Assembly (NCBI RefSeq): GCF_963921235.1
Contig: NC_086108.1
Coordinates: forward strand, 85,562,001-85,626,000
Length of the DNA stretch: 64,000 nt
Direction: 5' to 3'
Origin: Mobula hypostoma
Taxonomy: Eukaryota
Shown: positions 1,901-63,543 of the stretch, in pieces
Numbering within the stretch: the first letter of the stretch is position 1
How the letters are laid out: each line of letters opens with the position of its first letter
Program-made: the position numbers and the translations under genes
Notes under the pieces: model-generated
The model's input: only the letters and a program-made list of their open reading frames with translations
Told to the model about the DNA's origin: nothing
Databases searched by the model: none

Positions 1901-3568
1901 TACAATCTTCGGCTTGGATTCGTTTTTAAATCACCTCATCTTGGTACCTCCACATTCATTCTTTTGCATGTAGACGTCCTGTCGACACTGGACCTTTCTG
2001 TTTTCCCATCATCCTTTTGAGTTGCCAGTTTGGACCTTCCTTCTCTGGATTGACTCTGATGTACCCAATTCATTTATGAATAATTGCAAACATTATGCTT
2101 GATTTTGTTTTTCTGTTGGCTGTTGAAGTATCAGTTCAACCTTGGCAAATGCAGCCCACCAACAGCCATTGATAATGTACTCATTGAATCTTGGCTTTGT
2201 CTCTTTCATTACAGACTTACTAATCCATAGAAAATAAAGCTGAGCCTTGACATTGATGCTTGAAGATGTCCATTTTTGCAATTGTGATTTTCTATGGATA
2301 TGCAGTTATTGAAAGAACAGGAACTTCTCTTATTAGCCCGTTTAACTATTGTCTTAATGTTTAGGGGTTTATGTCTTTAATGCAGCTGTCATTATCAGGC
2401 AATGACTAAGATGTGCAGTGATGAAGTTGCCATTGGGTTAACCTGCCAACTTCAGCAAGAAGTAAAGCAGGCTTATTGGGCAACTGCCAAACGGTTGCGT
2501 GGTGACTGCAACGATGTGGTCTGGCCCGTAAACAGCACATTATAAATACCAGTTGTGGCAGCTGTTATACTTCAGTATTATCACAAGCTGATACATTCAA
2601 TTGGTTAACAATGCTTTGTCTTGCAAAATAGGATAATTAAAAGTTGAATGTTTTATTAATTGAAATTATTCATTTCCAAGTTGCTTTTGTGTCACTTCAA
2701 CCATCTTACTGTCACCTCTTGCCCTGAGACGGTTTTGTGACCTCAACAGTGTGGCACCTTTCCCCACGTGATGCACCTTTTGGAGTTTTGCAGGAGGCCT
2801 GGACCACCCAGGGGTTCCTTTGTTGGGCTCTTTTCAGACCGAAATATGTTAACCTCGCAGTCAATCTGATCTGCATTTTTCATGAACCCCAATGCAGCAC
2901 TAGAATTTCTAAGCAGTGTTCTTTCAAGTAGAATTTCTTCCTGAACTATCTTGTCAGCCAACATAGGTTCAATGGAAAGACAATGGAAACCTTACTGGAC
3001 TGAGTTTATTGGCGTGGGGGGTTCTTCCAAAGTTACAATGACTGATTTGCCATCCCTTCATCACTCCCACCATAACCAGCCTTGAGAAAATCCTAACATC
3101 TGTGTTTAACAAAATTCAATCAGAAGATTCTGCTAAGCCGTTATATTGATTATTATGAGAGCAATCACAGTGTCAGGTTGTAAAGTGGAAGCAGGATACA
3201 ATCTAACACTGTCCTAGTAAACTGCAGAATGTCATTTAATCCTGTGTTCAATTGCCAGCTCATCTACAGGAGGATGAGTAAAGGTGAGATCAGCTGGAGG
3301 TGAAAAAAGATGGTCAACAAAAATCAGTCAGAGATTCAGCCAAATATGTAGAATTAGCTGTGGGGAAAGAGGTGACATTTGCGGGCTGTGGAAGCGTAAG
3401 CATGAATCTAATAATCAAATTAGCCAATGATACACTTAAATGCCAATGATATCAAATTGAAAAATTTCATTGAAGATAATAACAATAGAAAATGAGGATG
3501 GAAAGCCAATAATTTACAAAAGAAGTATTTTTTTCTCTCTGTGGAGAGAACTTACTCATATTTTCTAA

Positions 3569-3810
3569 AGCAACACACATATATACACAAAATGCTAGAG
3601 GAACATGGCAGGCCAGGCAGCATCTATAGAAAAGAGTAAACAATCCACGTTTCAAACCGAGACCCTTCATCAAGACTGATGAAGGCCCAAAATGCCTATT
3701 GTGTACTCTTCTCCATAGATGTTGCCTGGCCTGCTGAATTCCTCCAGCATTTTGTGTGCATTACTTCGAATTTCCAGCATCTGCAGATTTTCTTGTGCTT
3801 TTGATAGTTG
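3569..3810. mobile_element. Fold-back (self-inverted) PLE terminal-module mini-element
   Basis: Two PLE terminal modules back to back around CCTTCATCA-agac-TGATGAAGG (3664-3685); flanked by direct repeat TATTTTCTAA at 3559-3568 and 3811-3820. Confidence 0.85.
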
Positions 3811-4330
3811 TATTTTCTAATTGTACTTTGGTTTAGTCATGTAGTCTGTGAACAAGTTTGAGGTCCTGCATATTTTATTGTGTATAGCACTCTGATCAAA
3901 ATGTGCTCACTAGGGCAGACCACTGGAATTAGCACTCAAAATGTTCTCTCTATACACTGACCTAGCTGTCAACCAGAGGATGTGCGGATGTCAGCACTTG
4001 TGATTTGACTTTTCTCATAGTGGCAGATTTTATTACTCATGGCTTGCTAACTGGTCAGGCTTTGTGGATATGGTTTAGTGGGTTGCTGATTTCTCAAGTA
4101 AACCAAGTCAAATCCACAACACTTGAGTTGCATCACTTTAAAAGAAAATTCACTTCAAAAAGGACTCAGTTTTTTTTCATAAAGGGTTCAATAAAAAAAC
4201 TGTGAAATGTTAAATAGAGAAAGAAATTCAAAAGGTGTTCTAATCCTGCTCCTTTCCTTATTTGACATGGAGAGCCTCTTGCATCTGTTCCAAAAGGCAT
4301 TACAGAAAAATCAAAACAAATCCCATTGAA

Positions 4331-5449
4331 CGCAAACGGGAGGAAATCTGCAGATGCTAGAATTTCAAGCAACACACATAAAAGTTGCTGGTGAACGCAG
4401 CATCTCTAGGAAGAGGTACAGTCAACGTTTTGGGCCGAGACCCTTCGTCAGGACTAACTGAAAGGAGAGCTAGTAAGAGATTTGAAAGTGGGAGGGGGAG
4501 GGGAAGATCCAAAATGATAGGAGAAGACAGGAGGGGGAGGGATGGAGCCAAGAGCTGGACAGGTGATTGGCAAAAGGGATATGAGAGGATCATGGGACAG
4601 GAGGCCCAGGGAGAAGGAAAAAGGGGAGGGGGGAACCCAGAGGATGGGCAAGGGGTATAGTGAGAGGGACAGAGGGAGAAAAAGGAGAGAGAGAAAAAGA
4701 ATACATATAAAAAAATGGATGGGGTATGAGGGGGAGGTGGGGCATTAACGGAAGTTAGAGAAGTCAATGTTCATGCCGTCAAGTTGGAGGCTACCCAGAC
4801 GGAATATAAGGTGTTGTTCCTCCAACCTGAGTGTGGCTTCCTCTTGACAGTAGAGGAGGCCGTGGATACGACATATCAGAATGGGAATGGGACGTGGAAT
4901 TAAAATGTGTGGTCACTGGGAGATCCTGCTTTCTCTGGCGGACAGAGCATAGGTATTCAGCGAAACGGTCTCCCAGTCTGCGTCGTGTCTCGCCAATATA
5001 TAGAAGGCCGCATCGGGAGCACCGGACGCAGTATATCACCCAGCCGACTCAGAAGTGAAGTGTCGCCTCACCTGGAAGGACTGTCTGGGGCCCTGAATGG
5101 TAGTGAAGAAGGACGTGTAAGGACATGTGTAGCACTTGTTCCGCTTACAAGGATAAGTGCCGGGAGGGAGATTGGTGGGGATGGATGGGCAGGGGGGACT
5201 AATGGACAAGGGAGTCGCATAGGGAGCGATCCCTGTGGAAAGCGGGGGAGGGAAAGCTGTGCTTAGTGGTGGGATCCCATTGGAGGTGGTGGAAGTTACG
5301 GAGAATTATATGTTGGACCCGGAGGTTGGTGGGGTGGTAGGTGAGGACAAGGGAGACCCTATCTCTAGTGGGGTGACAGGAGGATGGGGTGACAGCAGAA
5401 GTGCGTGAAATGGGGGAGATGCGTTTGAGAGCAGAGTTGATGGTGGAGG
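4331..5449 (-). mobile_element. Penelope-like element, 5'-truncated, with GIY-YIG endonuclease remnant
   Basis: ORF 4791-5039 IYCVRCSRCGLLYIGETRRRLGDRFAEYL; perfect 12-bp TSD AATCCCATTGAA at 4319-4330 and 5450-5461. Confidence 0.95.
4419..4456 (-). ncRNA. Minimal type-I hammerhead ribozyme motif (GAAA mutated to AAAA)
   Basis: Minus strand UAGUC CUGACGA A GGGUC UC GGCCC AAAA CG UU GACUG. Confidence 0.75.
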
Positions 5450-12484: not shown

Positions 12485-15400
12485 AATTGGGATCTCTTGG
12501 GGGAAGTATGACCTGTTCAAAAAGGACAGGTTACACCTGAACCCGAAGGGGACCAATATCCTGGCGGGAAAGTTTAATAGAGCTGTTAGGGAGGGTTTAA
12601 ACTAATTTGGCAGCGGGATGGGAACCGGAATGACAGAGTGGAGGAAGGGGAAAACAGAAATAAATTTAAGATAGTGAGCAGTAAAGATGTCAGGAAAGAC
12701 AGGCAGGTGATGGGGCTAATTTGTAGCCATTGGGATGAGTTGCAGTGCAATAAAGTTGCAGTGAAATCAAAGCGAAAAGTAGCAAATACTGGTCTTAAGG
12801 TGTTATACTTAAATGCATGCAGCATAAGGAATAAGGTGGATGATCTTGTATTACAGCTACAGATTGGCAGGTATGATATTGTGGCCATCACTGAGACGTG
12901 ACTAAAGGATGCATGTCTCTGGGAACTGAACGTCCAAGGATACACGGTGTATCAGAAGGTTAGGAAGGTAGGCAGAGGGGGAGGCGTGGTTTTATTGGTA
13001 AGAAATGATATTAAATCATTAGAAAGAGGGGATATAGGATCAGAAGGTGCAGAATCTTTATGGGCTGAGCTAAGAAATCTCAGGGGTAAAAGGACCCTGA
13101 TGGCAGTTATTTATAGGCCTCCAAACAGCTGCAGTGATGTGGACTACAAATTACAACAGGAAATAGAAAAGACTTGTCAGAAGGGCAGTGTTATGATAAT
13201 TGTGGGGGATTTTAACATGTGAGTGGATTGGGAAAATCAGGTCGGCACTGAATCTCAAGTGAGAGAATATGTAGAATGTTTGCGAGATGGCTTTTTAGAA
13301 CAGCTTGTTGTTGAGCCCACTAGGGGATCAGCTGTACTGGATTGGGTATTGTGTAATGAACCGGAGGTGATTAGAGAGATTGAGGTGAAGGAACCCTTAG
13401 GAGACAGTGATCATAACATGATTGAGTTCACTGTGAAATTTGAAAAAGAGAAGCCGAAATCTGATGTGTCGGTGTTTCAGTGGAGTAAAGGGAATTACAG
13501 TGGCATGAGAGAGGAACTGGCCAAAGTTGACTGGAAAGGGACTCTGGCGGGAAAGATGGCAGAGCAGCAGTGGCTGGAGTTTATGCAAGAAATGAGGAAG
13601 GTGCAAGACAGGTATATTCCAAAAAAGAAGAAATTTTCAAATGGAAAAAGGATGCAACCATGGTTGACAGGAGAAGTCAAAGCCAAAATTAAAGCAAAGG
13701 AGAGGGCATGACTTCAGGATTGAAGGGCGCCCTTTCAGAACAGAAATGCGAAGAAATTTTTTTAGTCAGAGGGTGGTGAATCTATGGAATTTGTTGCCAC
13801 GGGCAGCAGTGGAGGCCAAGTCATTGGGCGTATTTAAGGCAGAGATTGATAGGTATCTGAGTAGCCAGGGCATCAAAGGTTATGGTGAGTAGGCGGGGCA
13901 GTGGGACTAAATAGGATAAAATGGATCAGCTCATGATAAAATGGCGGAACAGACTCGATGGGCCGAATGGCCTACTTCTGCTCCTTTGTCTTATGGTCTT
14001 ATACAAGGAAGCAAAAATTAGTGGGAATACAGAGGATTTGGAAGTTTTTAAAACCTTACAAAAAGAAATTGAGAAGGTCATTAAGGGGAAAAAGATTAAC
14101 TATGAAAGGAAGCTAGCAAATAATATCAAAGAGGATACTAAAAGCTTTTCCAAGTATATGAAGAGTAAAAGACAGGTGAGAGTAGATATAGGACCAATAG
14201 AAAATGATGCTGGAGAAATTGTAATGGGAGATAAGGAGATGGCAGAGAAACTGAACGAGTATTTTGCATCAGTTTTCACTGAGGAAGACATCAGCAGTAT
14301 ACCGGACACTTAAGGGTGGCAGGGAAGAGAAGTGTGCGCAGTCACAATTATGACAGAGAAAGTACTCAGGATGCTGAATAGTCTAAAGGTAGATAAATCT
14401 CCTGGACCAGATGGAATGCACCGCGTGTTCTGAAGGAAGTAGCTGAGGAGATTGCGGAGGCATTAGCGATGATCTTTCAAAAGTCGATAGATTCTGGCAT
14501 GGTTCCACAGGACTGGAAGATTGCAAATGTCACTCCGCTATTTAAGAAGGGGGCAAGGAAGCAAAAAGGAAATTATAGAACTGTTAGCTTGACATCGGTG
14601 GTTGGGAAGTTGTTGGAGTCGATTGTCAAAGATGAGGTTACAGAGTACCTGGAGGCATATGACAAGATAGGCAGAACTCAGCATGGATTCCTTAAAGGAA
14701 AATCCTGCCTGACAAACAATTTTTTGAAGAAATTACCAGTAGGCTAGACAAGGGAGTTGCAGTGGATGTTGTATATTTGGATTTTCAGAAGGCCTTTGAC
14801 AAGGTGCCACACATGAGGCTGCTTAACAAGATAAGAGCCCATGGAATTACAGGAAAGTTACATACGTGGATAGAGCGTTGGCTGATTGGCAGGAAACAGA
14901 GAGTGGAAATAAAGGGATCCTATTCTGGTTGGCTGCCGGTTACCAGTGGTGTTCCACAGGGGTCCGTGTTGGGGCCGCTTCCCTTTACATTGTACATCAA
15001 CGATTTGGATTATGGAATAAATGGCTTTGTTAAGTTTGCTGACAATACGAAGATAGGTGGAGGGGCCGGTAGTGCTGAGGAAATGCAGAGTCTGCAGAGA
15101 GACTTGGATGGATTGGAAGAATGGGCAAAGAAGTGGCAAATGAAATACAATGTTGGAAAGTGTATGGTTATGCACTTTGGCAGAAGAAATAAACGGGCAG
15201 ACTATTATTTAAATGGGGAAAGAATTCAAAGTTCTGAGATGCAATGGGACTTGGGAGTCCTCGTACAGGATACCCTTAAGGTTAACCTCCAGGTTGAGTC
15301 GGTGGTGAAGAAGGCAAATGCAATGTTGGTATTCATTTCTAGAGGAATAGAGTATAGGAGCAGGGTTGTGATGTTGAGGCTCTATAAGGCGCTGGTGAGA

Positions 15401-15961
15401 CCTCACCTGGAGTACTGTGGGCAGTTTTGGTCTCCTTATTTAAGAAAGGATGTGCTGACATTGGAGAGGGTACGGAGAAGATTCACTAGAATGATTCCAG
15501 GAATGAGAGGGTTAACATATGAGGAACGTTTGTCCGCTCTTGGACTGTGTTCCATGGAGTTTAGAAGAATGAGGGGAGACCTCATAGAAACATTTCGAAT
15601 GTTGAAAGGCATGGACAGAGTGGATGTGGCAAAGTTGTTTTCCATGATGGGGGAGTCTAGTACGAGAGGGCATGACTTAAGGATTGAAGGGCGCCCATTC
15701 AGAACAGAAATGCAAAGAAATTTTTTTAGTCAGAGGGTGGTGAATCTATGGAATTTATTGCCTCCGGCAGCAGTGGAGGCCAAGTCATTGGGTGTATTTA
15801 AGGGAGAGATTGATAGGTATCTGAGTAGCCAGGGCATCAAAGGTTATGGTGAGAAGGCGGGGGAGTGGGACTAAATGGGAGAATGGATCAGCTCATGATA
15901 AAATGGCAGAGCAGACTCGATGGGCCGAATGGCCGACTTCTGCTCCTTTGTCTTATGGTCT
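12485..15961 (+). mobile_element. CR1 LINE: ORF1 end plus nearly complete ORF2 (APE endonuclease + RT) with stops and frameshifts
   Basis: LYLNACSIRNK, AITET, IYRPPN, GDFN, SDHN (APE); NYRTVSLTS, YLDFQKAFDKVPH, GVPQGSVLGP, KFADNTK (RT); 3' UTR ending CTTTGTCTTATGGTC. Confidence 0.97.
13710..14002 (+). mobile_element. 293-bp CR1 3' fragment nested in ORF2 of a closely related CR1
   Basis: Highly similar to 15674-15961; removing it restores the frame AKERA-YKEAKISG. Confidence 0.93.
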
Positions 15962-16254
15962 AAATAATGCATTGTTTTACACTGCACCTCCCAAGAAGCA
16001 ATAAGCCTAGTGCTGTGACCAACTTCCTACTTTCTCCAGGCAATGCTTCTGCTATATATAGAGCTTGTCTGCAAAACTGTTTTCAAACTTCAAACCAATT
16101 ATAGCTTGCTATTTACATTTTAAGAACTGAAAACCAGCTCCCATTTGCAACTAGAAGCTAACCAAAGAATATAGTTGAAAGTTTACCTTGCACTGTGTTT
16201 AGAAATCTGAGCTTGGCAAAAACATGAGGCCCTGCGGCCCAGGAAGTGAAAGTC

Positions 16255-16535
16255 CATCACACTGCTACACAGCTTCAAGGACTTGTGTTTGGTCCTGACC
16301 TTAGGCATTGTCTGAGTGTTCTCCCTCTGATGTGGGTTTCCCCTGGGTGCGTTGGTTTCCTTCTAAGTATGTGCTGGAGGATAATTGTCAGCTCTAAGAT
16401 GCCCCCAGTGCGCAGGTGACTGTCCGGAGAATTGCAGGAATTGATGGGGGGGGGGGTGGGCGGGAGGGGTAATGGAACTAATGGGTGTTCAGAAAGTTAG
16501 CAAAGACTGAATGAGTGAATGGTATTTTCTGATTC
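16255..16535 (+). mobile_element. Degenerate V-SINE/HE1-like SINE
   Basis: GTGGGTTTCCCCTGGGTGCGTTGGTTTCCT central V-domain-like motif. Confidence 0.65.
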
Positions 16536-16559
16536 AATTTCGGGTAAGTTTATTGTCAT

Positions 16560-17632
16560 TAACACAAGAGAATATACAGTTGATGGAAATCCAGAGCAAC
16601 ACATGCAAAATATTGGAGGAATTCAGCAGGTCAGGCAGCACCCAATGAAATATATAAACAGTTGACTTTTCAGTATGATACCCTTCATCACATCTGGAAA
16701 GGAAGGGGGAAGAAGCCAGAATAAAAAGGTAGGAGGAAGAGGAGGAGTACAGGCTGGAAGGTGATTGGTGAAGCTGGGTGGGTGGGGGATTGGGGGACTG
16801 AAGTAAGAATATGGGAGGAGATAGGTGGAAGATGTGAAGTGCTGGAAAAGTAGGAATCTGATGGGAGAGGAGAGTGGACAATGGGACAAAAGGAAGGAGG
16901 ATGGGCACCAGATGGAGGTGATAGGCAGGTGGGGAGAAGAAAGGAGGTAAGAGGGACACCAGCAGGGAAATTGAAGGCGGAGGTGAAAATGACCGGAAGC
17001 TGGAGAAATTGATGTTCATGGCATGGGGTTGAAGGCTACCAAGATGGAATATGAGACATGTTCCTGCAACGAAAGAGTGACATCATGGTGGCAGTAGAGG
17101 AGGCCATGGACCGATATATTAGGACAGGAATGGGGATGGAAATTAAAATTCTGCAGATGGAATGAAGGAGCTTGACAAGGCAGTTCCCCCAATCTACATC
17201 AGGTCCCACTAGTGTAGAGGAGGCTGCGTCAGAAGAACAGGATACAGTAGATGGCCCCAACAGATTTGCAGGTGAAATGTTGCCTCACATTAACGGACTG
17301 ATTGGAGCTATGAATGGAGGTGAGGGAGGAGATGAATAGGCAGGTGTAGCATTTCTTCCGCTGCAGAGGTAAGTGCCATGAAGGAGATTAGTGGCAAGGG
17401 ATGAATGGACAAGGGAATCATGGAGGGAGTGATCACTGTGGAAGTTGGAGAGTTGGGGAGGGGAGGTAAAGATGTATTTGGTGGTAGGGGCCCATTGAAG
17501 ATGGCAGAAGCTGTGGAGAATGAATTGTTGGATCCAGAGGCTCATTGGGTGGTAAGTAAGGACAAGAGGAACTCTATCGCTGTTAGGGCAGTGGAAAGAT
17601 GGAGTGAGGTTGGATGTGTGGGAAATGGAGGA
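16560..17632 (-). mobile_element. Penelope-like element, degenerate GIY-YIG region plus terminal module
   Basis: DRVPLVLTYHP peptide in ORF 17285-17644; same layout as 4331-5449; decayed hammerhead at 16659-16696. Confidence 0.9.
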
Positions 17633-21442: not shown

Positions 21443-22235
21443 ATCAGGAGCGGAAGTAGGCCATTCGACCCATCAAGTCTGCTCCGCCATTTAATCATGG
21501 GCTGACCCAATTCATCGGGTCATCCCCACTCCCCAGCTTTCTCTCCATACCCCTTGATGCCCTGGCTAATCAAGAACCTATGCCTTAAATACACCCAATG
21601 ACCTGGTCTCCACAGCTGCTCGTGGTAACAAATTCCACAGATCTACCACCCTCTGACTAAAGTAATTTCTCCGCATCTCAGTTCTAAATGGACGTCCTTC
21701 AATCCTGAAGTCGTGCCCTCTTGTCCTAGAATCCCCTACCATGGGAAATAACTTTGCCATATCTAATCTGTTCAGGCCTTTTACCATTCTGAATGTTTCA
21801 ATGAGGTCCCCCCTCGTTCTCCTGAACTCCAAGGAATACAGCCCAAGAGCTGCCAGACATTCCTCATACGGTAACCCTTTCATTCCTGGAATCATTCTCA
21901 TGAATCTTCTCTGAACCTTCTCCAATGTCAGTATATTCTTTCTAAAATAAGGAGCCCAAAACTGTACACAATACTCCAAGCGTGGTCTCCCAAGTGCTTT
22001 GTAGAGCCTCAACATCACATCCCTGCTCTTATATTCTATACCTCTAAAAATGAATGCCAACATTGCATTCATCTTCTTCACAACGGACTCAACCTGGAGG
22101 TTAACCTTTGGGGTATCCTGCACAAAGACTTCCAAGTCCCTTTGCATCTCTGCATTTAGAATTCTCTCCTCATCTAAATAATAGTCTGCCCATTTATTCA
22201 TCCACCAAAGTGCATGACCATACACTTTCCAACTT
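21443..22235 (-). mobile_element. CR1 3' fragment
   Basis: ORF 21578-22324 LYKALGRPRLEYCVQFWAP...LEKVQRRF...RGDLIETF. Confidence 0.95.
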
Positions 22236-24581
22236 TTTTTGTAGGGCCTGGCAGATCTGGTTCTCAAGATCCCAGATGATTGGGGTAAGGATCTGCAAAG
22301 AAGGAATGATAGGCTGAGGGTCAATCTCCATTTCGGATGGGTTGCATTGTCTTAAGCTAGGTTGGTAGCAGATGGTGGGATTGTATTGTTTGAAGCAGAG
22401 GGCCTGTGAGCCTGACGTGGGTCGTGTTGGCGGGTCTTCTGAATGGATATGTTCTGGTGGTCAGTCCAGATCAGGAAGGGCTCAGTTCTCCCCATCTGTC
22501 AATGCCTCCTTTCATCCAATGCTCACTTAGTAGTGAGTAGCTCCCTGTTTCCTACTCTACAATGACACTGTGCAGAGTTGAACTTGTGCCTGAGCCTTCT
22601 GCTTTCACATATCTTCCCATCTGGTCCTCACTGGGAGAGAATGGCTCTGGTGCCCATGTCAGCTTTGTCCACAAAAGGTCCAGAGGTGTTTCAGATGGCA
22701 GAGAATGAAAGAAGAGGTGAAGCATCTTGAGCTCTTCAAAAGTATGAACCACGGCAGTAAATCATACCTTCAGTGTGGTAAGCAATTTGGTGAGGGAGGT
22801 GAAAGGAGTGGCGATTTGGCTGCACTGTATTTCCTGATGAAATGGTGATAGAACTTGGTGAAGCCCTAGAAGTACTGTAGCTGTTTAAGGGAGGACAGTT
22901 GGGACTATTCAATGACGGCAGTCATGTCCTCTGGATCCATGGCTATGCCTTGGGGTGAAAGGACGTCACCCTGGAAAGAAACGACTGGGGTGTTGGAACT
23001 GGCATTTTTCTAACTTGCAGTGAGGTTGGTTTTCATCGAGACACTGAAGGACTGAACAGACGTGACAGACGTGGTCTTGGGGGTCCTTGGAGAAGATGAG
23101 GATATCATCGAAGTAGATGAACACATGTGTAACCATGTCTTGGAAGATCTTGTGCATGAAGTCTTGGAAAATGGCTGGACTGCTGGAAAGTCAAAAGACA
23201 TCACCAAATACTTGTAGTAGCCAGTGGTGTTATGAACATTGTCTTCCACTTATCCCCCTGGCAGACATGGATCAGGTTGTATGCACTCTGTAGGGACAGC
23301 ATGGTGAAGATCTCGGCCTCGTGGACTGTTTTGAATGTGCTATCCATTAAGGGCAGAGAGTAATGGATCTTAATGGCAATTTTGTTGAGTGCCTGGTGTC
23401 AATGCAGGGATGGAGACCCCCAAAGAAGAATCCTGTATCAGCGGGTGACTGGGAGGGTCAAATGCAGCTGTTGCATTGGCACTTTGGTGATGTAGTCACT
23501 CATGGCTCGAGGCTTAGTGGAGGAAAGGGAAAACAGACGACCTCAGGGAGGGCGGGTACTGGGGGGAGGTTGATCGCACAGCTATATGTGCTGTGAGGTG
23601 GTAGGGTGCTGGCTTTCCTTTTACTGAAGGCGATGGCTGTCATAATATTCATGAGGGAATTTGGTGAGCTCGAGGGTGACTCACCTGAGATTGCAGGCAG
23701 GTGCGTCTCTAACTCAGCAGTGTTCTGGATGACCAGGTGAAGTCAGGACTGAGAGAAAAGATCCAGAGCTAACCCAAAATGAGAGCAATGAGTCGATAAG
23801 GAAGAATTAGATGGACTTGTGATGCTCTCTGCTGCTGTGTGTGCTCTGACAATCCCAGACCCCAAGGGATGTCTGTCAATGGCTGTGATGCAGAAAGGGT
23901 GAGAGTTGGCAGGCTTGTTAGGGAGTCCAAGCTGCACACACCGAATACGGCCCAGAAAGTTGCCTGCTGAGCTGGAATGCACCAGGGCCTCATATACGCA
24001 TAGAATCGCCACGAAGTAGAGGAGGAAAAGAGAGAGAGCGAGTCATGTTATGATGCTGGAACGAGGGGCTGAGGGGATCTCACCATATACCTTGTTTCTA
24101 CCTAGTCATGCAATCCTCCCGGAATCGGAGGCCATTTGATGTGCGGCTGATCGGCTGCTCTGTAGTAAGTGCCCAAATTGTTTCTCCACCGATGCTCAAG
24201 CTCTTTGGGGGGTGAGGGGTTACAGGAGCTCTCCCTAACTGCATGGACTCTGCAGGTGTTGCTGATGAAGGTCCTGCAGCCTGGAATTGTTCTGGGAATG
24301 GAACTGGGGTTCTGGCTGGTGGTATGGAGGGTCATTTCACAAGATACCTGGCAACATGGAAGGCAAGTGTGATGAGGTTTTTGAGGACAATGGGCATCTC
24401 GTAGGTAAACAGCTCATCTTTCAAGCACTTCAAGAGGTGTATTAGTAATGGGCCATCTGTGCCTCAGTATTCCAGATGCACACCGCCATGAGGTTCTTGA
24501 ATTCCCCGGAGTAATTTAGCACTGAGTATTAGCCTTGTTGCAGGCCTAGTCAGAGATCACCCAGTCAACGGAGAGATGACA

Positions 24582-27500
24582 GGACCATAGACCATAAGAT
24601 TTAGTAGCAGAATTAGGCCATTTGGTCCATTGAGTCTGCTCTGCCTTTTCATCATGGCTGAACCAATTTTCCTCTCAGCCCCAGTATTGTGCCTTCTCCC
24701 CGAATCCGTTCATGCCTTGACCAATTAAGAACCTATCAACCTCTGCCTTAAATATACATAAAGACTTCCTCAAAATGACCTGTCGCTCCACCTATCTTCA
24801 TGTTATCTGCAAACTTGGCAACAAAGCCATCAATTCCATCATCCAAATCATTGACATATGACATAAAAAAAATTGGTCCCAACACAGACCACTGTGGAAT
24901 ACTACTAATCACCGGCAGCCAGTCAGAAAAGGTTCCCTTTATTCCCACTCTTTGCTTCCTGCCAATCAGCCACTGCTTTATCCACGCTAAAATCTTTCCT
25001 GTAATACCATGGGATCATAGCTTGTTAAGCAGCCTCATGTGTGACAACTTGTCAAAGGCCTTCTGAAAACCCAAGTACATATCTTCAACCAATTCCCCTT
25101 GGTCTATCCTGCTTGTTATTTCTTCAAAGAATTTCAACAGATTTGTTAGACAAGATTTTCCCTCAAGGAAACCATGCTGACTACAGCCTATTTTATCATG
25201 CAACTCCAAAACCATATCATTAACAATTGACTCCAACATCTACGCAATCACTGAGGTCAGACTAACTGGCCTATAATTTCCTTTCTTCTGTTTCTCTCCC
25301 GTCTTGAAGAGTGGACAGACATTTGCAATTGCAATCTAGTGATTCTTGAAAGATCATTACTAATGCCTCCACAATTTCTTCAGCCACCTCTTTCAGAACC
25401 CTGCGACGTACACCATCTGGTCCAGGTGACTTATCCACCTTCAGACTTTGCAGTGTCCCAAGAATCTTCTCCCTAGTAATGGCAACTTCGTTCACCTCTG
25501 ACCCCTGACACTCAGGAGCTTCCACTATACTGTTGTGTCTTCCGCAGTGAAGACTGATACAAAATACTTATTCAGTTCATCTGCCATTTCCTTTTCACCG
25601 TTTACCAGCAATGTTTTCCAGTGATCCAATATCCAGTCTCACCTCTCTTTAACACTTTTTGTTTCTGAAGAATTTTTTGGTATTTTCTTTCATATTATTG
25701 ACTAGCTCACTTTCATATTCCATCTTTTCCTTCTTAATGGCTTTTCTAGTTGCCTTCTGTTGGTTTTTAAAGCTTCCCAATCCTCAAACTTCCCTCTAAT
25801 TTTTGCTCTATTATATGCCTTTAATGTTAGCTTTGACTTCCCTTATTAGCCACAGTTGTGTATACATTCCTCTTTGGGATGTATATATTCTGTGCCTTCC
25901 GAACTTCTTCCAGAAATTCCAGCCTTTACAGCTTTGCCATCATCCCTGCCAGTGTTCTTTTCCAATCAATTCTGGTCAACTACTCTTTCATGCCTCTAAT
26001 TCCTTTTACTCCACTGTAATACTGATGCATCTGATTTTAGCTTCTCCTTCTCTAATTGCAGAGTGAATCTGATTATATTATGTTCACTTGACCCAAAGGG
26101 TTCTTTTACCTTAAGGTCTCTAATTAATTCTGGTTCACCATGCAACATCTAATCCAGAATATCTGATCCTCTAGTGCGCTCAACCATGAGCTGCTCGAAA
26201 ATGCCATCTCACAGGCATTCCAGCAATTCCCCCTTCTGTAATCCAGGCACCAACCTGATTTTCCCAATCTACCTGCATATTGAAATCCCCATGACTATTG
26301 TAACATTGCCCTTTTGGCATGCATTTTCTATCTCCCGTTGTGACTTTTAGACCACATCCTTGCTATTGTTGGGGCTCTGTATATAATTCCCATCAGGGTC
26401 TTTTTGCCCTTGCAGTTCCTTAGCTGTATCCACAATGAGTCAACACTTCCAACCCTATGTCACCTCTTTCTAACGATATGATTTCATTTTTCTCCAACAG
26501 AGCAGTCTCCTTTACCTTCCTGCCTGTTCTTTCGATACAATGTGCATCCTTGGACTTTAAGTTCCCAGCTAAAGTCTTTCATCCATGATTCAGTAATGCC
26601 TACAACATCATACCTGCCAATCAGCAACTGTGCTGCAAATTCATATACAACACCTTCAGTCCTGTATTCACTCTTTTCAATTTTGTCCACCTTTTACATT
26701 GCAACTCATCCTGTTGGCTGCAATTTTGCCCTGTAACGGCCTCTCCTCACTACACATTGCCTCTGTGTGTAAACCAGCTACCATATCTTCAGCACTATTA
26801 TCCGCCTTTCCTACAATACTTCTTGCATTGAAATATAGGCAGTTCGGACACCAGTCACACCATACTCAACCTTTTGATTCCTAACTTTGTCTGAGGTCTT
26901 ACCAACACCTGCATCCACAACCTCTCCAGTAACTGTTCTGGCACTCTGGTTCCCATCCCCCTGCAACTCAGGCTTAAACCCCACCATGTAGCATTAACAA
27001 ACCTTCCCACTAGGATATTCGTCCCCCTCCAGTTCAGGTGTAAGCCGTCCCTTCTGTACAGGTCCCACCATCCCTGAAGAGAGTCCAATGATCCAAAAAT
27101 CTTATGCTCTCTCTGCTACACCAACTCCTTAGCCAAATAATAAACTATATAATCTTCCTAGTTCTATCCTCACTAGCACATGGCATGGGTAGAAATCCTG
27201 AGATCACAACCCTGGAAGTCCTGCCCTTTAACTTAGCACTTGAATCCCTGAATTCCCTATGCAGAGCCTTGTCACTTGTCCTACCAATGTCACTGGTACG
27301 TACATGGACCACGACTTCTGGCTGTTCACCCTCCCACTTAAGAATGCTGAGGATTTGACCCGCGATATCCCAGACCCTGGAACCTGGGAGGCAACATACC
27401 ATCCGGGAATCTTGTTCTCACCCACAGATCCTAACTAATGCCATTCCCCTAACTAACGAATCCCCTATCACCATAGTCTCCTCCCTTCCCTTCTGAGTCA

Positions 27501-28225: not shown

Positions 28226-28915
28226 CCTACACCATCTGCTATGTTCAGCAACTGTTAAAAATCTCCCAGTGAATGTCAGGAACCAAATTACAGTGTACTT
28301 TATCTGATATTCTTGCTTGTTTTGACTTAATTTTTGGTTTATAGTGTCTGAACTTTTCTTGAGCATTCAGTTATATTTAAAAAACCTACTAAAATTTTCT
28401 TCATTTGCAGAAGGAATTTATCAAAATGAAAATGAAGATTAGCTCAGTTGGTGTGGTTGGGTGGTGTCCTGGAAAATCTTAGCATACTTACCATGTTCTC
28501 ATGAGCATTGGCCTAAACTGATCAACCTTCCTTCATCCCATGAACTAACCTTGTGATCCTTCTCTGACATCTATTCGTATTCCCATTTGCCTAAATACTA
28601 GTGCAATAACAATTATTTATTTTACTGAGGATGCGTATAACCGTATTAATTCGTGCTATTATTAACTTACAAGGGAAATTTCTGCACTAATGTAGAATAG
28701 AACTGCATTGCTTGCAATAGACATTTATGTTATTGACTGGAAGGTTTCCTGTTGCTAATGCATTCTTAGGAAATGGAGTACTGTTTGTGCCACAGCTTTA
28801 ATTAATAGTACCCAAATCATTTTACAATGCAATATGGGGAATAGAAAGTTAAATTTGAAATGTAAAAAAAAGTTATTAGCAGTATTTTCATTTTTGTTCC
28901 TCTACAATTCTCTGT

Positions 28916-29100
28916 GGGGTGTCAGGGAGGGGTAGCACCTCTGTTGGGGGAACATGTTGCGTCCTCTTCAAGGCTGTTAGTCCACCTTTGGTCCCCACCT
29001 GGCACTCAGCTCTCTCCTGTGGCTCCTCGTAGCTGTTTGCATGCGACAGCGGCCACACTCCGGGCAACGGCCTCGACAAGCCGGCTAAACCAGGTGAGGG
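28916..29100 (+). ncRNA. HDV-like (delta-like) self-cleaving ribozyme fold
   Basis: P1 GGGGUGU 28916-28922 / ACACUCC 29055-29061; P2 29010-29020 / 29089-29100; P3 GGC 29021-29023 / GCC 29052-29054; L3 UCCUCGU 29024-29030; P1.1 GG 29062-29063; GCAA; P4 CGGC/GCCG; J4/2 GCUAA with catalytic-C equivalent at 29085. Confidence 0.85.
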
Positions 29101-29425
29101 TAGCCGATGGGTCTCAAAACTTCAGTGAGATAGAGAAGTGTCTATCCCAGTATGTGAAGACAGACTCTGGTGGATTGAGCGGACGAGACCAATGGAAGGT
29201 TCAATGGTCAAGAAGGTGGTCTCTGCAAGCATTGTGGAATGTGTAGAGTATGACAAGACACAAAAGATGTCCTGGTCGTCCACTGCGCCTAGTCCTATCT
29301 CCAGCCATCTGAACTCTGTCTTGCCACTGGATCCAGATGGGAATTGGGAAGAGAGAGTGAGGCTGATGCTGCACAACTTTCCTTCACTTAAATCCAAATC
29401 AAGCGCTAGTCTTGACACCATCATT

Positions 29426-29560
29426 AGCCGGCTGGTGGCATAGTGGCATCAGCGCTGGACTTTGGGGTGAGAGGTCCTGAGTTCAAATCTGGCCTGCTCC
29501 CTTGCACGCTTTCCATCCATGCTGGGTTGAGCATCGAGCTAGCAACTCGACCTCGTAAAG
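29426..29560 (+). mobile_element. Short tRNA-derived SINE inserted in the RTE-type element
   Basis: A-box TGGCATAGTGG, B-box GAGTTCAAATCT, short unique 3' part ending GTAAA. Confidence 0.75.
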
Positions 29561-29884
29561 AGTACTAATGGTGTCAAGGTCTTCATCGATGACGATGGAT
29601 GAACCTTATTTAAGAGCTAGAAGAAAACACGTAAAGAGTTACATTTTATGGATCTGATTGAATGTGCACAGCACAAAAGGTTCAGGATAAATAAAATCAC
29701 TCTTCTGGTTGATTTGACCTTTCTTCTGTGGGTGTCTGGTGCTGCACTGAGTGTTGCATGTTGCATGGCACTGTGAAGAGACTGCAAACCTCTCCCTTTA
29801 GGGATAAGTAAATATCCAGCTGCAGGTATGAGTGGAAGCTCAAACTTAATGTTATGCTGTGGTGCTCTGTCATTAGTATTTAGT

Positions 29885-30150
29885 GATTTATTGAGATTCA
29901 GAGCAGAGTATGCCTTTCCGGCCCTTTGAGCTGCATCTGCCGGCAACCCCTGATTTAACCATAGCCTAATCGTGGAACAAATTACAATGACTAAGTCACC
30001 TATAAACCAGTACGTCTTTGGATTGTGGGAGGAAACCAGAACACCTGGAGGAAACCAACATGGTTATCGGGAGAACGTACAAAATCTTTACAGACAACGG
30101 CGGGAACAGAACCTGCGTCGCTGATATTGTAAAGCATTATACCACCACAG
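29885..30150 (-). mobile_element. V-SINE/HE1-like SINE
   Basis: Minus strand GGTTTCCTCCAGGTGTTCTGGTTTCCTCCCAC...CCAAAGACGTAC core and CR1-like tail. Confidence 0.85.
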
Positions 30151-40439: not shown

Positions 40440-41835
40440 AGAAACATAGCATAGAAACATAGAAAACCTACAGCACAATACAGGCCCTTCAGTCCACAAT
40501 GCTGCGCCGAACATGTACTTACTTTAGAAGTTACCTATAGCCCTCTATTTTTCTAAGCTCCATGTACCTATCCAGGAGCCTCTTAAAAGACCACTGTGGC
40601 CGGCAGCCATTCCACGCACTCACCACTCTCTGCGTTAAAAAACTTACCCTGTCATCTCCTCGGTACCTACTTCTAAGCACCTTAAAACTGTGTCCTCTCG
40701 TGTTAGCCACTTCAGCCCTGGGAAAAAGCCTCTGACTATCCACACGATCAATGCCTCTCATCATCTTATGCACCTTTGTCAGGTCACCTCTCATCCTATG
40801 TTGCACCAAGAAGAAAAGGCCAAGTTCACTCAACCTATTCTCATAAGGCATGCTCACCATTCCAGGCAACATCCTTGTAAGTCTCCTCTGGACCCTTTCT
40901 ATAGTTTCCACATCCTTCCTGTAGTGAGGTGACCAGAACTGAACACAGTACTCCAAGTGGGGTCTGACCAGAGTCCTACATAGCTGTAACATTACCTCTC
41001 GGCTCTTGAACTCAGTCCCACGGTTGATGAAGGCCAATACACCGTATGCCTTCTTAACCACACAGTCAACCTGTGCAGCAGCTTTGAGTGTCCTATGGAT
41101 TTAGACCCCAAAATCCCTCTGATCCTCCACACTGCTAAGAGTCTTACCATTAATACTATATTCTGCCATCATACTTGACCTACCAAAATGAACCACCTCA
41201 CATTTATCTGGGTTGAACTCAATCTGCCACTTCTCAGCCCAGTTTTGCATCCTATTGATGTCCCGCTGTAACCTCTGACAGCCCTCCACACTATCCATAA
41301 CACCCCCAACCTTCGTGTCACCAGCAAACTTACTAACCCACCCCATCACTTCTTCATCCAGGTCATTTATAAAAATCACGAAGAGACGGGGTCCTAGAAC
41401 AGATCCCTGAGGCACACCACTGGTTACCAACTTCCATGCAGAATATGACCCGTCTACAACCACTCTTTGCCTTCAGTGGGCAAGCAAGTTCTGGATCCAC
41501 AGAGCAATGTTCCCTTGGATCCCATGCGTCCTTATTTTCTCAATAAGTCTTGTATGGGGTACCTTATCAAATGCCTTGCTGAAATCCATATACACTACAC
41601 CTACTGCTCTTCCTTCATCAATATCTTTAGTCACATCCTCAAAAAATTCAGTCAGGCTCATAAGGCACAACCTTTGACAAAACCATGCTGACTATTCCTA
41701 ATCATATTATGCCTCTCCAAATGTTCATAAATCCTGCCTCTCAGGATCTTCTCCATCAACTTACCAACCACTGACGTAACATTCACTGGTCTATAATTTC
41801 CTGGGCTATCTCTACCCCCTTTCTTGAACAAAAGA
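40440..41835 (-). mobile_element. CR1 RT/3' fragment
   Basis: YMDFSKAFDKVPH, GVPQGSVLGP, KFAGDTK, RPHLEYCVQFWSP; TTCTATGT-type tail. Confidence 0.96.
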
Positions 41836-41911
41836 ACACTTCTTCCCTTGTTTGTAAATTTTCCAATGTGTTCAAACTTAAAAGAAATCTGGAACTTATA
41901 TAATGTTTGTG

Positions 41912-42789
41912 CACTTAGCAGTCACTTTATTAGGGACACCAATCAGGATACATGCAACCAGGCTTTTCCATTGAAATTGGGCAAGGCTACAACTAGAGTT
42001 CATGGGTTAAGGGTGAAAGGCGAAACGTTTAAGGGTAACAAGAGGGGAAACTTCCTCACCCAGAGCACGGTGAGAGTGTGAAATGATCTGCTAGCGTAAG
42101 TGGTAGATTTAATTTTGATTTCAACGCTTGAGGGAAGTATGGATAGGTACAAGGATGGTAGGGGTATGGAGGGCCATGATCTGTATCTGTCGATGGGACT
42201 AGGCAGTTTAAATAGTTTAGCACAGTCTAGATTGGCTGTAGTGTTCTATGTCTGTATGACTCTGACCTGCACCTGCTCGGTAATGCAAATATCTAATCAG
42301 CCAATCATGTGGCAGCAAGTCTAATACATAAAAGCATGCAAATGTAATCAGGAGGTTCATTTGTTATAAGAGCAAACATTAAAATGGGGAAGAAATGTGA
42401 CCTAAGTGAGTTCAACTGTAGAATAATTGTTGGTACCAGACGGAGTGGTTTGAGTATCTCAGAAATTGCTGATCTCCTGGGATGTTCTCATCCTACAGTC
42501 TCTAGAGTTTAAATAGAAAGGTGCAAAAAGCAAAGAAACATCCAGTAAGCAGGAAGTCTGTGGACATAAACATCTTGTTAATGAGAGAGGTCGGAGGAAT
42601 ATGACCAGACTGGTTCAAACTGACAGGAAGGTGACAGTATCTCAAATAACCACACATTACAGCAGTGATGTGCAAAGGAGCCTTTCTGAACTCACATCAG
42701 ATGGACTATAGCAGCAGACGTCCGTGAACGTGCACTTAGTGGCCACTTTATTAGGTACAGGAGGTAACTAGTAAAGTTGCCACTGAGTG
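41912..42789 (+). mobile_element. Tc1-like DNA transposon derivative (N-terminal HTH only) ending in a TIR-TIR palindrome
   Basis: TIR CACTTAGTGGCCACTTTATTAGGTAC; peptide from 42384 MGKKCDLSEFNCRIIVGTRRSGLSISEIADLLG.S..TVSRV. Confidence 0.88.
41950..42265 (+). mobile_element. CR1 3' fragment nested in the Tc1-like element
   Basis: TRVHGLRVKGETFKGNKRGNFLTQ; matches 530-860. Confidence 0.88.
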
Positions 42790-54139: not shown

Positions 54140-54480
54140 TTTATTTATGTATTTAGAGATGCGGTATGGCAAGAGGCCCTTCTGGCCCACAATTACACCC
54201 AAGTGACCAATTGACCTACTAACCGATATTTGGGAGGAATTTGGGAGGAAACCAGACCACATGGAGGAAACTTTCATGGTCAGTGGACGAACGTACAAAC
54301 TCCTTACCAATTGACCTACTAACTGATATTTGGGAAGAATTTGGGAGGAAACCGGACCACATGGAGGAAACTTTCATGGTCAGTGGAAGAACGTACAAAC
54401 TCCTTACAAGCAGTGTTGGGAATTGAACCCAGATCGTTGGCTCTGTGAAGTGTTATGCTAACTGCTATGCTACTGTGCAA
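54140..54480 (-). mobile_element. V-SINE with an internal 100-bp tandem duplication
   Basis: Units 54206-54305 and 54306-54405; tRNA-like head GAATTGAACCC...GCTAACTGCTATGCTAC. Confidence 0.9.
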
Positions 54481-63254: not shown

Positions 63255-63543
63255 TTTATTTATTTATTATTTAGTGATACAGTGCAGAGTAGGCCCTTCT
63301 GGCCTTTTGAGCCTCACCGCCCAGCAATCCCCAACAAACCTGATTAACCCTAACCTAATCATGGAACAACCTAAAATGACCAATTAACCCACCTGAAATG
63401 CCTTTGGACTGAGGAAGGAAACAAGAGGACACGGAGAAAATGTAAAGAGACTACTTACTGAATTGTGCCAGAACTGAACTGCAAACTCCAGAACACCTCG
63501 AGCTGTAATAGCATCACACTAACCACTACGCTACCATACACCC
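63255..63543 (-). mobile_element. V-SINE/HE1-like SINE
   Basis: Tail GAGTAGGCCCTTCTGGCC; head CTAACCACTACGCTACC; homologous to 29885-30150. Confidence 0.8.

What the first reader, a model, noticed from the sequence alone, without database searches (positions are those of the whole stretch)
28916..29100. Complete HDV-like self-cleaving ribozyme fold at the apparent first base of a non-coding retroposon
Seen: every element of the nested double pseudoknot can be assigned. P1 is GGGGUGU (28916-22)/ACACUCC (29055-61), 7 pairs with one G-U. P2 is 29010-20/29089-100, with one bulge and one U-U. P3 is GGC/GCC, L3 is UCCUCGU, and P1.1 is CC/GG. These are followed by GCAA, P4 CGGC-cucgacaa-GCCG and J4/2 GCUAA. 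The string GGGCAAC...GGCUAA mirrors the genomic HDV ribozyme (GGGCAAC...GGCGAA), placing the C75 equivalent at 29085. The predicted cut is 5' of G28916, where GC-rich sequence begins after AT-rich flank. Known: HDV-like ribozymes process the 5' ends of R2, R4 and RTE retrotransposons. Inference: this ~690-bp element is a ribozyme-headed non-autonomous retroposon (no tRNA head) released from host read-through transcripts and mobilised by an RTE partner.
Basis: partly seen in the sequence, partly recalled or inferred. Interest (0 to 1): 0.88.

Follow-up and report, generated by a model that had tools for sequence, protein, structure and literature searches.

The report
Ribozyme-led RTE leader carrying a SINE
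This is a slightly clipped copy of a jumping element made of a self-cutting RNA and leader from a LINE, a tRNA-type SINE and the same LINE's tail, and the leader and tail can pair with each other exactly where the pieces are joined, which may explain why this class of LINE needs both of its ends to jump.

Summary
The HDV-like fold is real at family level: at least 960 copies, compensatory changes in diverged relatives, and the same fold heading autonomous LINEs. Three corrections. (2) The family's 5' end and best P1 strand lie 9 nt upstream of G28916; this copy lacks them, and 28917-26 prefers to close J1/2, so it is probably a poor cutter. (3) It has a tRNA-type head, inside the element (29426 on). 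The element is RTE 5' UTR + SINE + RTE tail; the cognate full-length LINE was found. New here: a 10-14-bp helix between the 5' UTR and the first bases after the ORF stop, with unrelated sequence in two families, weakly in a third, and in a published hagfish RTE. Joins fall at its edge. The leader/SINE junction differs from copy to copy (35 strings in 54) and no free SINE with this tail was seen (0 of 40 tails), which points to repeated template switching. Cleavage, pairing and switching are inferred, not shown.

The parts
28907..28915 (+). Place where most family copies carry the first of two near-tandem P1 5' strands (the predicted true cut site); here replaced by flank
   Evidence: 23-28 of 29 copies share each of these 9 columns; 81 of 96 keep at least 7 of 9, this copy 3; loose ends before 28915 in runs X8 and X9 show the repeat
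28916..28926 (+).
28927..29009 (+). Structured J1/2 domain
   Evidence: folds; divergent in family 2 and L139, L142, L149
29010..29100 (+). HDV-like core: P2, P3, L3, P1 3' strand, P1.1, P4, J4/2 with C29085
   Evidence: both-side changes in P2 (2 pairs) and P4 (2 pairs); P3 and P1.1 nearly invariant
29031..29051 (+). Extra hairpin inserted at the 3' end of L3
   Evidence: kept in all 14 aligned sequences, 97.6% of cells paired but no both-side change
29101..29424 (+). Rest of the first 510 nt of the RTE 5' UTR
   Evidence: 89% to L287; the form-A copy L034 is 78.5% identical to L139 over this part and the ribozyme
29411..29421 (+). 5' UTR arm of the leader-tail helix
   Evidence: inverted repeat 29411-26/29563-78; pair probability 0.57-0.90; present in the full-length LINE
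29426..29560 (+). tRNA-type SINE head (A box 29436-46, B box 29481-89) and core ending in a short A run
   Evidence: the same head and core stand free with another tail in the 30 loci read of 864 matches; ARAGORN calls no tRNA
29564..29610 (+). RTE 3' tail: helix arm 29568-78, terminal hairpin and short repeat
   Evidence: 90% to the bases right after the ORF stop of the cognate LINE, L286

Best explanation
The stretch is the 5' end of an RTE-type LINE leader. In intact copies an HDV-like ribozyme with an extra L3 hairpin cuts the element out of a longer host transcript at the upstream repeat; this copy has lost those 9 nt and is probably a weak or dead cutter. The whole 28916-29610 element is leader + tRNA-SINE + tail. 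In the LINE RNA a short arm about 505 nt into the 5' UTR pairs with the first bases after the ORF stop, bringing the two ends together; derivatives keep both arms and drop or replace what lies between (form A: nothing; form B: a SINE). Form B most likely arose many times: the LINE reverse transcriptase starts on a SINE-plus-tail RNA, which lacks the 5' arm, copies it, and jumps to an RTE leader RNA next to the arm that is paired with the SINE's tail. Shown: structure of the pieces, family ends, complementarity, junction statistics. Inferred: cleavage, the RNA helix, the jump.
For: Ribozyme: 8 pairs with both-side changes, 0 of 500 shuffles; in L139 and L287 only the upstream repeat can pair with the P1 3' strand, and in L139, L142, L149 it gives 7 of 7 pairs; ends at -9; 3 of 16 metagenome pattern hits are this ribozyme about 750-850 nt ahead of an endonuclease ORF. 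Helix: cognate -17.8 against -5.0 and -5.1 kcal/mol non-cognate (family 1) and -16.7 against -5.8 to -7.0 (family 2) at the homologous place, ranking 2nd and 1st of 39 bins; a 10-bp perfect helix is reached in 16 and 28 of 1000 shuffles; a 9-bp inverted repeat joins the 5' UTR and 3' parts of hagfish RTE-2_EBu in SINE1-1_EBu (PMC7245038 supplement, read by eye). Repeated assembly: 35 junction strings in 54 copies, P(identical) 0.026, against 0.43 for the A-run linker of the same copies and 0.19 for form A; 11 of 29 family-2 loci are the same kind of chimera with another SINE subtype, one joined into the middle of the SINE head; two SINE subtypes go with mixed leader variants (left x SINE mean r2 0.059 against SINE x SINE 0.48); 0 free SINEs among 40 of 44 tails and 29 of 29 other SINE-query hits carry leader.
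Against: No cleavage or RNA-end data. One of the two both-side changes in P1 rests on a row misaligned by 2 columns (the anchor check, gives the same A-U pair). Family 3 gives only -12.1 kcal/mol, no better than a non-cognate tail (-11.2, -12.2), and 677 of 1000 shuffles reach its perfect-helix length. Within families the arms show no covariation (p 0.33-1.0). Family-2 internal deletions break about 20-40 nt after the arm, not at it. Leader sites are weakly linked even to each other (r2 0.048), so low leader x SINE linkage is weak evidence, and one leader site is linked to SINE subtype (r2 0.21, p 0.004). Most B copies were chosen by likeness to this copy. The family-1 junction lies in a short triplet repeat that could slip.
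Confidence: 0.6

Rival explanations
1. Same ribozyme and helix, but form B is a handful of old master elements (a SINE that landed once or a few times in the loop), moved whole by read-through transcription and ribozyme release; junction variety comes from slippage and several masters.
For: No free SINE with this tail is also what whole-unit movement predicts; target-site duplications flank the whole of many B copies; one leader site is linked to SINE subtype; the 3' linker is uniform; a few junction strings recur 3-6 times.
Against: Ten length classes at the junction against 43 of 55 in one class for the A-run linker of the same copies; the same arrangement arose in family 2, which has no triplet repeat at that place; one junction enters mid-SINE.
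Confidence: 0.27
2. One reading: a canonical HDV fold that cuts 5' of G28916 and defines the family's 5' end, in an element without a tRNA part.
For: The only 7-pair partner for the P1 3' strand in this copy is 28916-22; 7 of 96 copies lack the upstream repeat and L181 has its duplication ending at offset 0; R2 elements with a doubled P1 are thought able to cut at either (PMC3774820, passages).
Against: Family ends at -9; L139 and L287 cannot use the second repeat; the J1/2 stem sequesters it; A and B boxes are present.
Confidence: 0.05
3. The leader-tail complementarity has no role in retrotransposition: it is chance, or only favours deletions at the DNA level between inverted repeats.
For: Single-family significance is modest (16 and 28 of 1000 shuffles); family 3 is weak; hagfish RTE-4_EBu shows only 6-7 pairs.
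Against: Same position, unrelated sequence and cognate-only pairing in families 1 and 2; the arms are kept, not deleted, in nearly all form A copies; an independent hagfish case.
Confidence: 0.08

Closest known systems
HDV-like ribozymes at the 5' ends of RTE, R2, R4, baggins and L1Tc/Ingi elements (Webb 2009; Ruminski 2011; both not held, known here through passages of PMC6765202 and PMC5786205)
   Same: Double pseudoknot at the element's 5' end, long J1/2, catalytic C in J4/2, RTE host.
   Different: Hairpin inside L3 and a doubled P1 strand whose second copy closes J1/2; no Rfam model hits it. I could not read the primary papers, so an earlier description of an L3 insert is not excluded.
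Bipartite ORF-less RTE derivatives and SINEs with bipartite RTE parts (Bov-A, Bov-tA, AfroSINE, WALLSI3, SINE1-1_EBu; PMC5786205 part 1, section 23 and passages; PMC7245038 passages and supplement passages)
   Same: 5' UTR part joined to 3' end; moved by the partner RTE; form A fits exactly.
   Different: In those SINEs the RNA-derived head is 5' of the RTE parts, and the paper notes that a ribozyme would cut such a head off. Form B has the reverse order: ribozyme and leader first, tRNA head inside. The passages read name no 5'-3' pairing and call the reason for bipartite derivatives unknown.
R2 SIDEs and R2/R1 hybrid SIDEs (PMC3414825, passages)
   Same: Ribozyme-headed non-autonomous elements; hybrids of two elements.
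   Different: Site-specific in rDNA, few old lineages, no SINE cargo.
U6/LINE and Alu/LINE template-switch chimeras (PMC13174262, PMC4476161, passages)
   Same: Two RNAs in one insertion under one target-site duplication; RTE-type enzymes can switch templates.
   Different: There the small RNA is 5' and whole and the LINE part is 3' and cut at varying places; here the LINE leader is 5', ends at a fixed place, and the arrangement is the only form in which this SINE-tail unit was seen.

Membership tests
HDV-like ribozyme | Nested double pseudoknot P1, P1.1, P2, P3, P4 | tested here: met
   93.6% of cells paired, 8 pairs with both-side changes in 14 sequences; relatedness of rows inflates this
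HDV-like ribozyme | L3 of 7-8 nt directly closed by a 3-bp P3 | tested here: not met
   21-nt hairpin insert
HDV-like ribozyme | Catalytic C in J4/2 and U, C, C, G of L3 | tested here: met
   L3 positions invariant and the C in 13 of 14 rows
HDV-like ribozyme | Element 5' end at the first base of P1 | tested here: met
   Met for the upstream repeat (mode -9), not for 28916
HDV-like ribozyme | Match to an Rfam HDV-type model | tested here: not met
HDV-like ribozyme | Mg2+-dependent self-cleavage lost in the C-to-U mutant | not testable with these tools
   only contigs were available
Bipartite non-autonomous RTE derivative | 5' part from the LINE's 5' end and 3' part from the same LINE's 3' end, no ORF | tested here: met
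   89% and 90% to L287 and L286
Bipartite non-autonomous RTE derivative | Partner is an RTE-clade LINE | tested here: inconclusive
   Single long frame (1109 aa open, 63% to the L139 endonuclease protein), Pfam endonuclease and RVT_1 in relatives, short 3' UTR with a repeat tail; no tree was built, the clade label is from recall of these traits
Bipartite non-autonomous RTE derivative | Target-site duplications | tested here: met
   69 copies with 7-17 bp matches, the shortest possibly chance; none found for this copy
tRNA-derived SINE (SINE2) | A and B boxes | tested here: met
   29436-46 and 29481-89
tRNA-derived SINE (SINE2) | Head at the element's 5' end; moves as a free unit | tested here: not met
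   head starts at base 511 of the element; 0 free copies with this tail in 40 of 44 tails
tRNA-derived SINE (SINE2) | Pol III transcription | not testable with these tools
   no raw RNA reads

The most novel reading that the evidence does not exclude
RTE LINEs recognise their RNA through a helix between a 5' UTR arm and the start of the 3' UTR, which is why their non-autonomous offspring are bipartite; and this SINE, which has only the 3' arm, supplies the missing arm in trans from an RTE leader RNA and picks up that ribozyme-headed leader by a template switch at most or all insertions: a SINE that must borrow a leader each time it moves.
Probability: 0.35. Interest if true: 0.82.

Novelty: new variant of a known kind. 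Interest (0 to 1): 0.6.

Why it matters
A ribozyme at an RTE 5' end is known. What may matter is the helix: PMC5786205 states that only a few LINE groups give internally deleted, two-ended derivatives, for unknown reasons. A short 5'-3' helix with unrelated sequence in different families gives a rule that can be tested by break-and-rescue mutations, and RTE-based gene-insertion systems use both UTRs on their template RNA (PMC13708176, passages). The L3 hairpin shows that HDV-type searches with a fixed L3 length miss whole families. Form B is a natural way for a Pol III SINE and a 5' ribozyme to sit in one element.

Tried and rejected
Rfam at gathering and E-value thresholds: nothing relevant. 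ARAGORN: no tRNA gene. DUF6451-type LINEs as partner: 0 of 46 loci share DNA with the element. The most abundant RTE (family 3) as partner: shares only UTR 232-505 at about 75%, has another tail and no descriptor hit in 7 loci. Viral contigs pattern scan: 0; 13 of 16 metagenome hits unrelated by BLAST. First descriptor run missed its own positive control because P2 was too strict and was redone. Pair probabilities for the J1/2 stem were indexed one base off; one search is right. The double change at pair 3 of the helix in this copy looked compensatory but fits independent CpG decay (p 0.67). The SINE-core sample fell on a different SINE subfamily and does not count free SINEs with this tail. 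Sequencing runs: no RNA holder listed, contigs only, so nothing on expression or RNA ends. A likeness between 28906-28923 and 29722-29739 was considered as a duplication with 3' transduction and left open. Not done: a formal form-A control for the linkage test, junctions split by SINE subtype, a copy-number estimate beyond the 960 lower bound, and a tally of the catalytic C over all copies. Papers not held: Webb 2009, Ruminski 2011, Webb and Luptak 2011. Paper searches showed no listing on an L3 insert, a 5'-3' helix in RTE RNA or a leader-SINE-tail chimera; one search was weak because the UTR phrases do not match printed primes; Repbase, Dfam, patents and the supplement of PMC5786205 (listed, not opened) were not seen.

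Full report
What is there. The window is G000:C50:85562001-85626000 of a 3.48-Gb animal genome; earlier scan notes call it a cartilaginous fish, which I did not test. Rfam finds nothing. A descriptor fitted to this build hits once in the window, only if the insert is allowed, and in 1 of 60 resampled sequences of the same length. The nested fold is no more stable than shuffles (z 0.13), so the case rests on comparison.

The family. 28916-29610 is a dispersed repeat: 9099, 1292 and 5071 first-look candidates for the whole, the ribozyme and the SINE part, 40 scored each; a 26-nt piece of the core has 960 exact matches, control 0 (this count includes family 2). The 30 copies first aligned are 92-96% identical to their majority sequence.

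The cut site. Most copies carry a near-duplicate of the P1 5' strand 9 nt upstream of the 28916 position: 81 of 96 keep at least 7 of 9 letters, 7 keep 4 or fewer, this copy 3; duplications place the end at -11 to -7 in 43 of 69 copies, mode -9, and at 0 or +1 in 2. Loose ends in two other runs show the same repeat. The second repeat pairs with 28998-29007 to close J1/2 (probability 0.95-0.97; -15.3 against -8.8 kcal/mol). A pattern scan of metagenome contigs gave 16 hits, 3 of them true relatives (L139, L142, L149), each about 750-850 nt ahead of an endonuclease frame. In L139 P1 pair 2 is U-A and only the upstream strand pairs; in L142 pair 1 is A-U; in the cognate LINE L287 only the upstream strand pairs. 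Against this: both registers have the same share of paired cells, one P1 change rests on a misaligned row, the rows are related, and the second repeat keeps 6-7 possible pairs in most lineages, so a minor second site is possible, as proposed for doubled P1 strands in R2 (PMC3774820, passages). One contig of run X8 that covers this flank is 9 letters longer over 28804-28931, while one of X9 is not; the letters were not shown, so a later loss of the repeat at this locus is only a hint.

Anatomy. Of 29 other ribozyme-query hits 27 are a 565-nt form A (leader joined straight to tail), 1 is like this copy and 1 is other. This copy is form B: leader (28916-29424), a tRNA-type SINE with A and B boxes (29426 to about 29560), then the tail. 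The same head and core stand free with a different tail (30 loci read of 864 matches). The partner LINE lies on C58 near 18.20 Mb: L287 holds the same ribozyme and leader (89%), L286 the tail right after the stop (90%), with a 1109-aa open frame between. Among 40 of 44 tails sampled through a rare variant, 29 are form A, 8 form B, 3 LINE ends and 0 free SINEs.

The helix. In the full-length LINE, 10 bases about 505 nt into the 5' UTR are the exact complement of bases 4-13 after the stop; here they are 29411-21 and 29568-78. Family 2 (about 75% alike, L254-L283) has a 10-11-bp helix of unrelated sequence at the same two places. Cognate pairing is -17.8 and -16.7 kcal/mol against -5 to -7 for non-cognate tails; single-family shuffles give 16 and 28 of 1000. 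Family 3 is weak and not specific (-12.1; 677 of 1000), though by eye 13 of 14 positions can pair, and 4 copies join leader to tail 6-10 nt after the arm, control 0 (the pattern could only find near joins). In the published hagfish sequences a 9-bp inverted repeat spans the join between the 5' UTR and 3' parts of RTE-2_EBu, and both arms are in the LINE itself; RTE-4_EBu shows 6-7 pairs (PMC7245038 supplement passages, read by eye). Copies within a family show no covariation, as expected of dead copies, and family-2 deletions break 20-40 nt past the arm.

How form B arises. The leader/SINE junction has 35 strings in 54 of 56 copies and ten lengths (P identical 0.026), against 0.43 for the A-run linker of the same copies and 0.19 for form A; the extra letters are mostly A (124 of 161, counting the SINE's presumed first base). 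The SINE part has two clear subtypes (mean r2 0.48) that go with mixed leader variants (0.059), but leader sites are also weakly linked to one another (0.048) and one is linked to subtype (p 0.004). At one leader site 45 of 55 B copies share the letter of L287 and 44 of 45 A copies the other, so B leaders come from the LINE pool, not from form A. In family 2, 11 of 29 loci are the same kind of chimera with their own SINE subtype and tail (9 by script, 2 by eye), all joined at or inside the arm, one into the middle of the SINE head. I read this as repeated template switching from a SINE-tail RNA to a leader RNA held by the helix (about 0.55 given the helix); a few old masters moving whole is the main rival. 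How the leader RNA gets a free end at the arm is unexplained.

Against what is known. Ribozymes at RTE 5' ends and bipartite RTE derivatives are in print (PMC6765202 passages; PMC5786205 part 1, section 23, passages; the primary ribozyme papers were not held). Ribozyme-headed non-autonomous elements are known for R2 (PMC3414825, passages). RTE enzymes can switch templates (PMC4476161, passages). A terminal hairpin in RTE tails is described (PMC6007223, passages) but lies within the 3' end. PMC13635239, PMC13174262, PMC5499810, PMC13708176 and bioRxiv 2022.11.04.512097 were seen as passages only. Nine searches showed no listing for the L3 insert, the 5'-3' helix or this order of parts; repeat databases and patents were not seen.

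Verdict. New variant of a known kind. Interest 0.6, carried by the helix and the leader-borrowing hypothesis, not by this copy.

Noticed in passing
L254-L283 (family 2): A second RTE family with an almost identical ribozyme core but a different J1/2 and leader, and two identical P1 strands; includes full-length copies and SINE chimeras.
   Followed up: partly
L224-L253 (family 3): The most abundant RTE (7956 candidates, frames up to 1129 aa) has GC-rich, varying 5' ends in place of this ribozyme; L236 300-700 looks like a captured host coding stretch.
   Followed up: no
L194-L223: An abundant free tRNA-SINE with the same head and core as 29426-29553 and an unrelated tail (864 exact matches to one variant motif).
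   Followed up: partly
L139, L142, L149: Metagenome records hold autonomous RTE 5' ends; L139 is 78.5% identical over 510 nt of UTR to this family, a possible sign of wide spread or horizontal transfer; hosts unknown.
   Followed up: no
window 28906-28923 and 29722-29739; 29554-63 and 29630-39: No target-site duplication found for this copy; the 5' junction resembles a stretch 110 nt past the tail, and a 10-nt piece of the linker recurs just past the tail.
   Followed up: partly
L121 (minus strand 2189-5242): A DUF6451-type LINE with a 1018-aa open frame, unrelated in DNA to this family.
   Followed up: no
window 12840-17000, 21446-22350, 24590-27090, 40450-41950: Several CR1-type LINE fragments in both orientations; a further repeat family at 29877-30113, 54206-54429 and 63261-63440.
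   Followed up: no
L150 and L146: Two metagenome pattern hits look like a structured RNA unrelated to this family (RNase P-like by recall).
   Followed up: no
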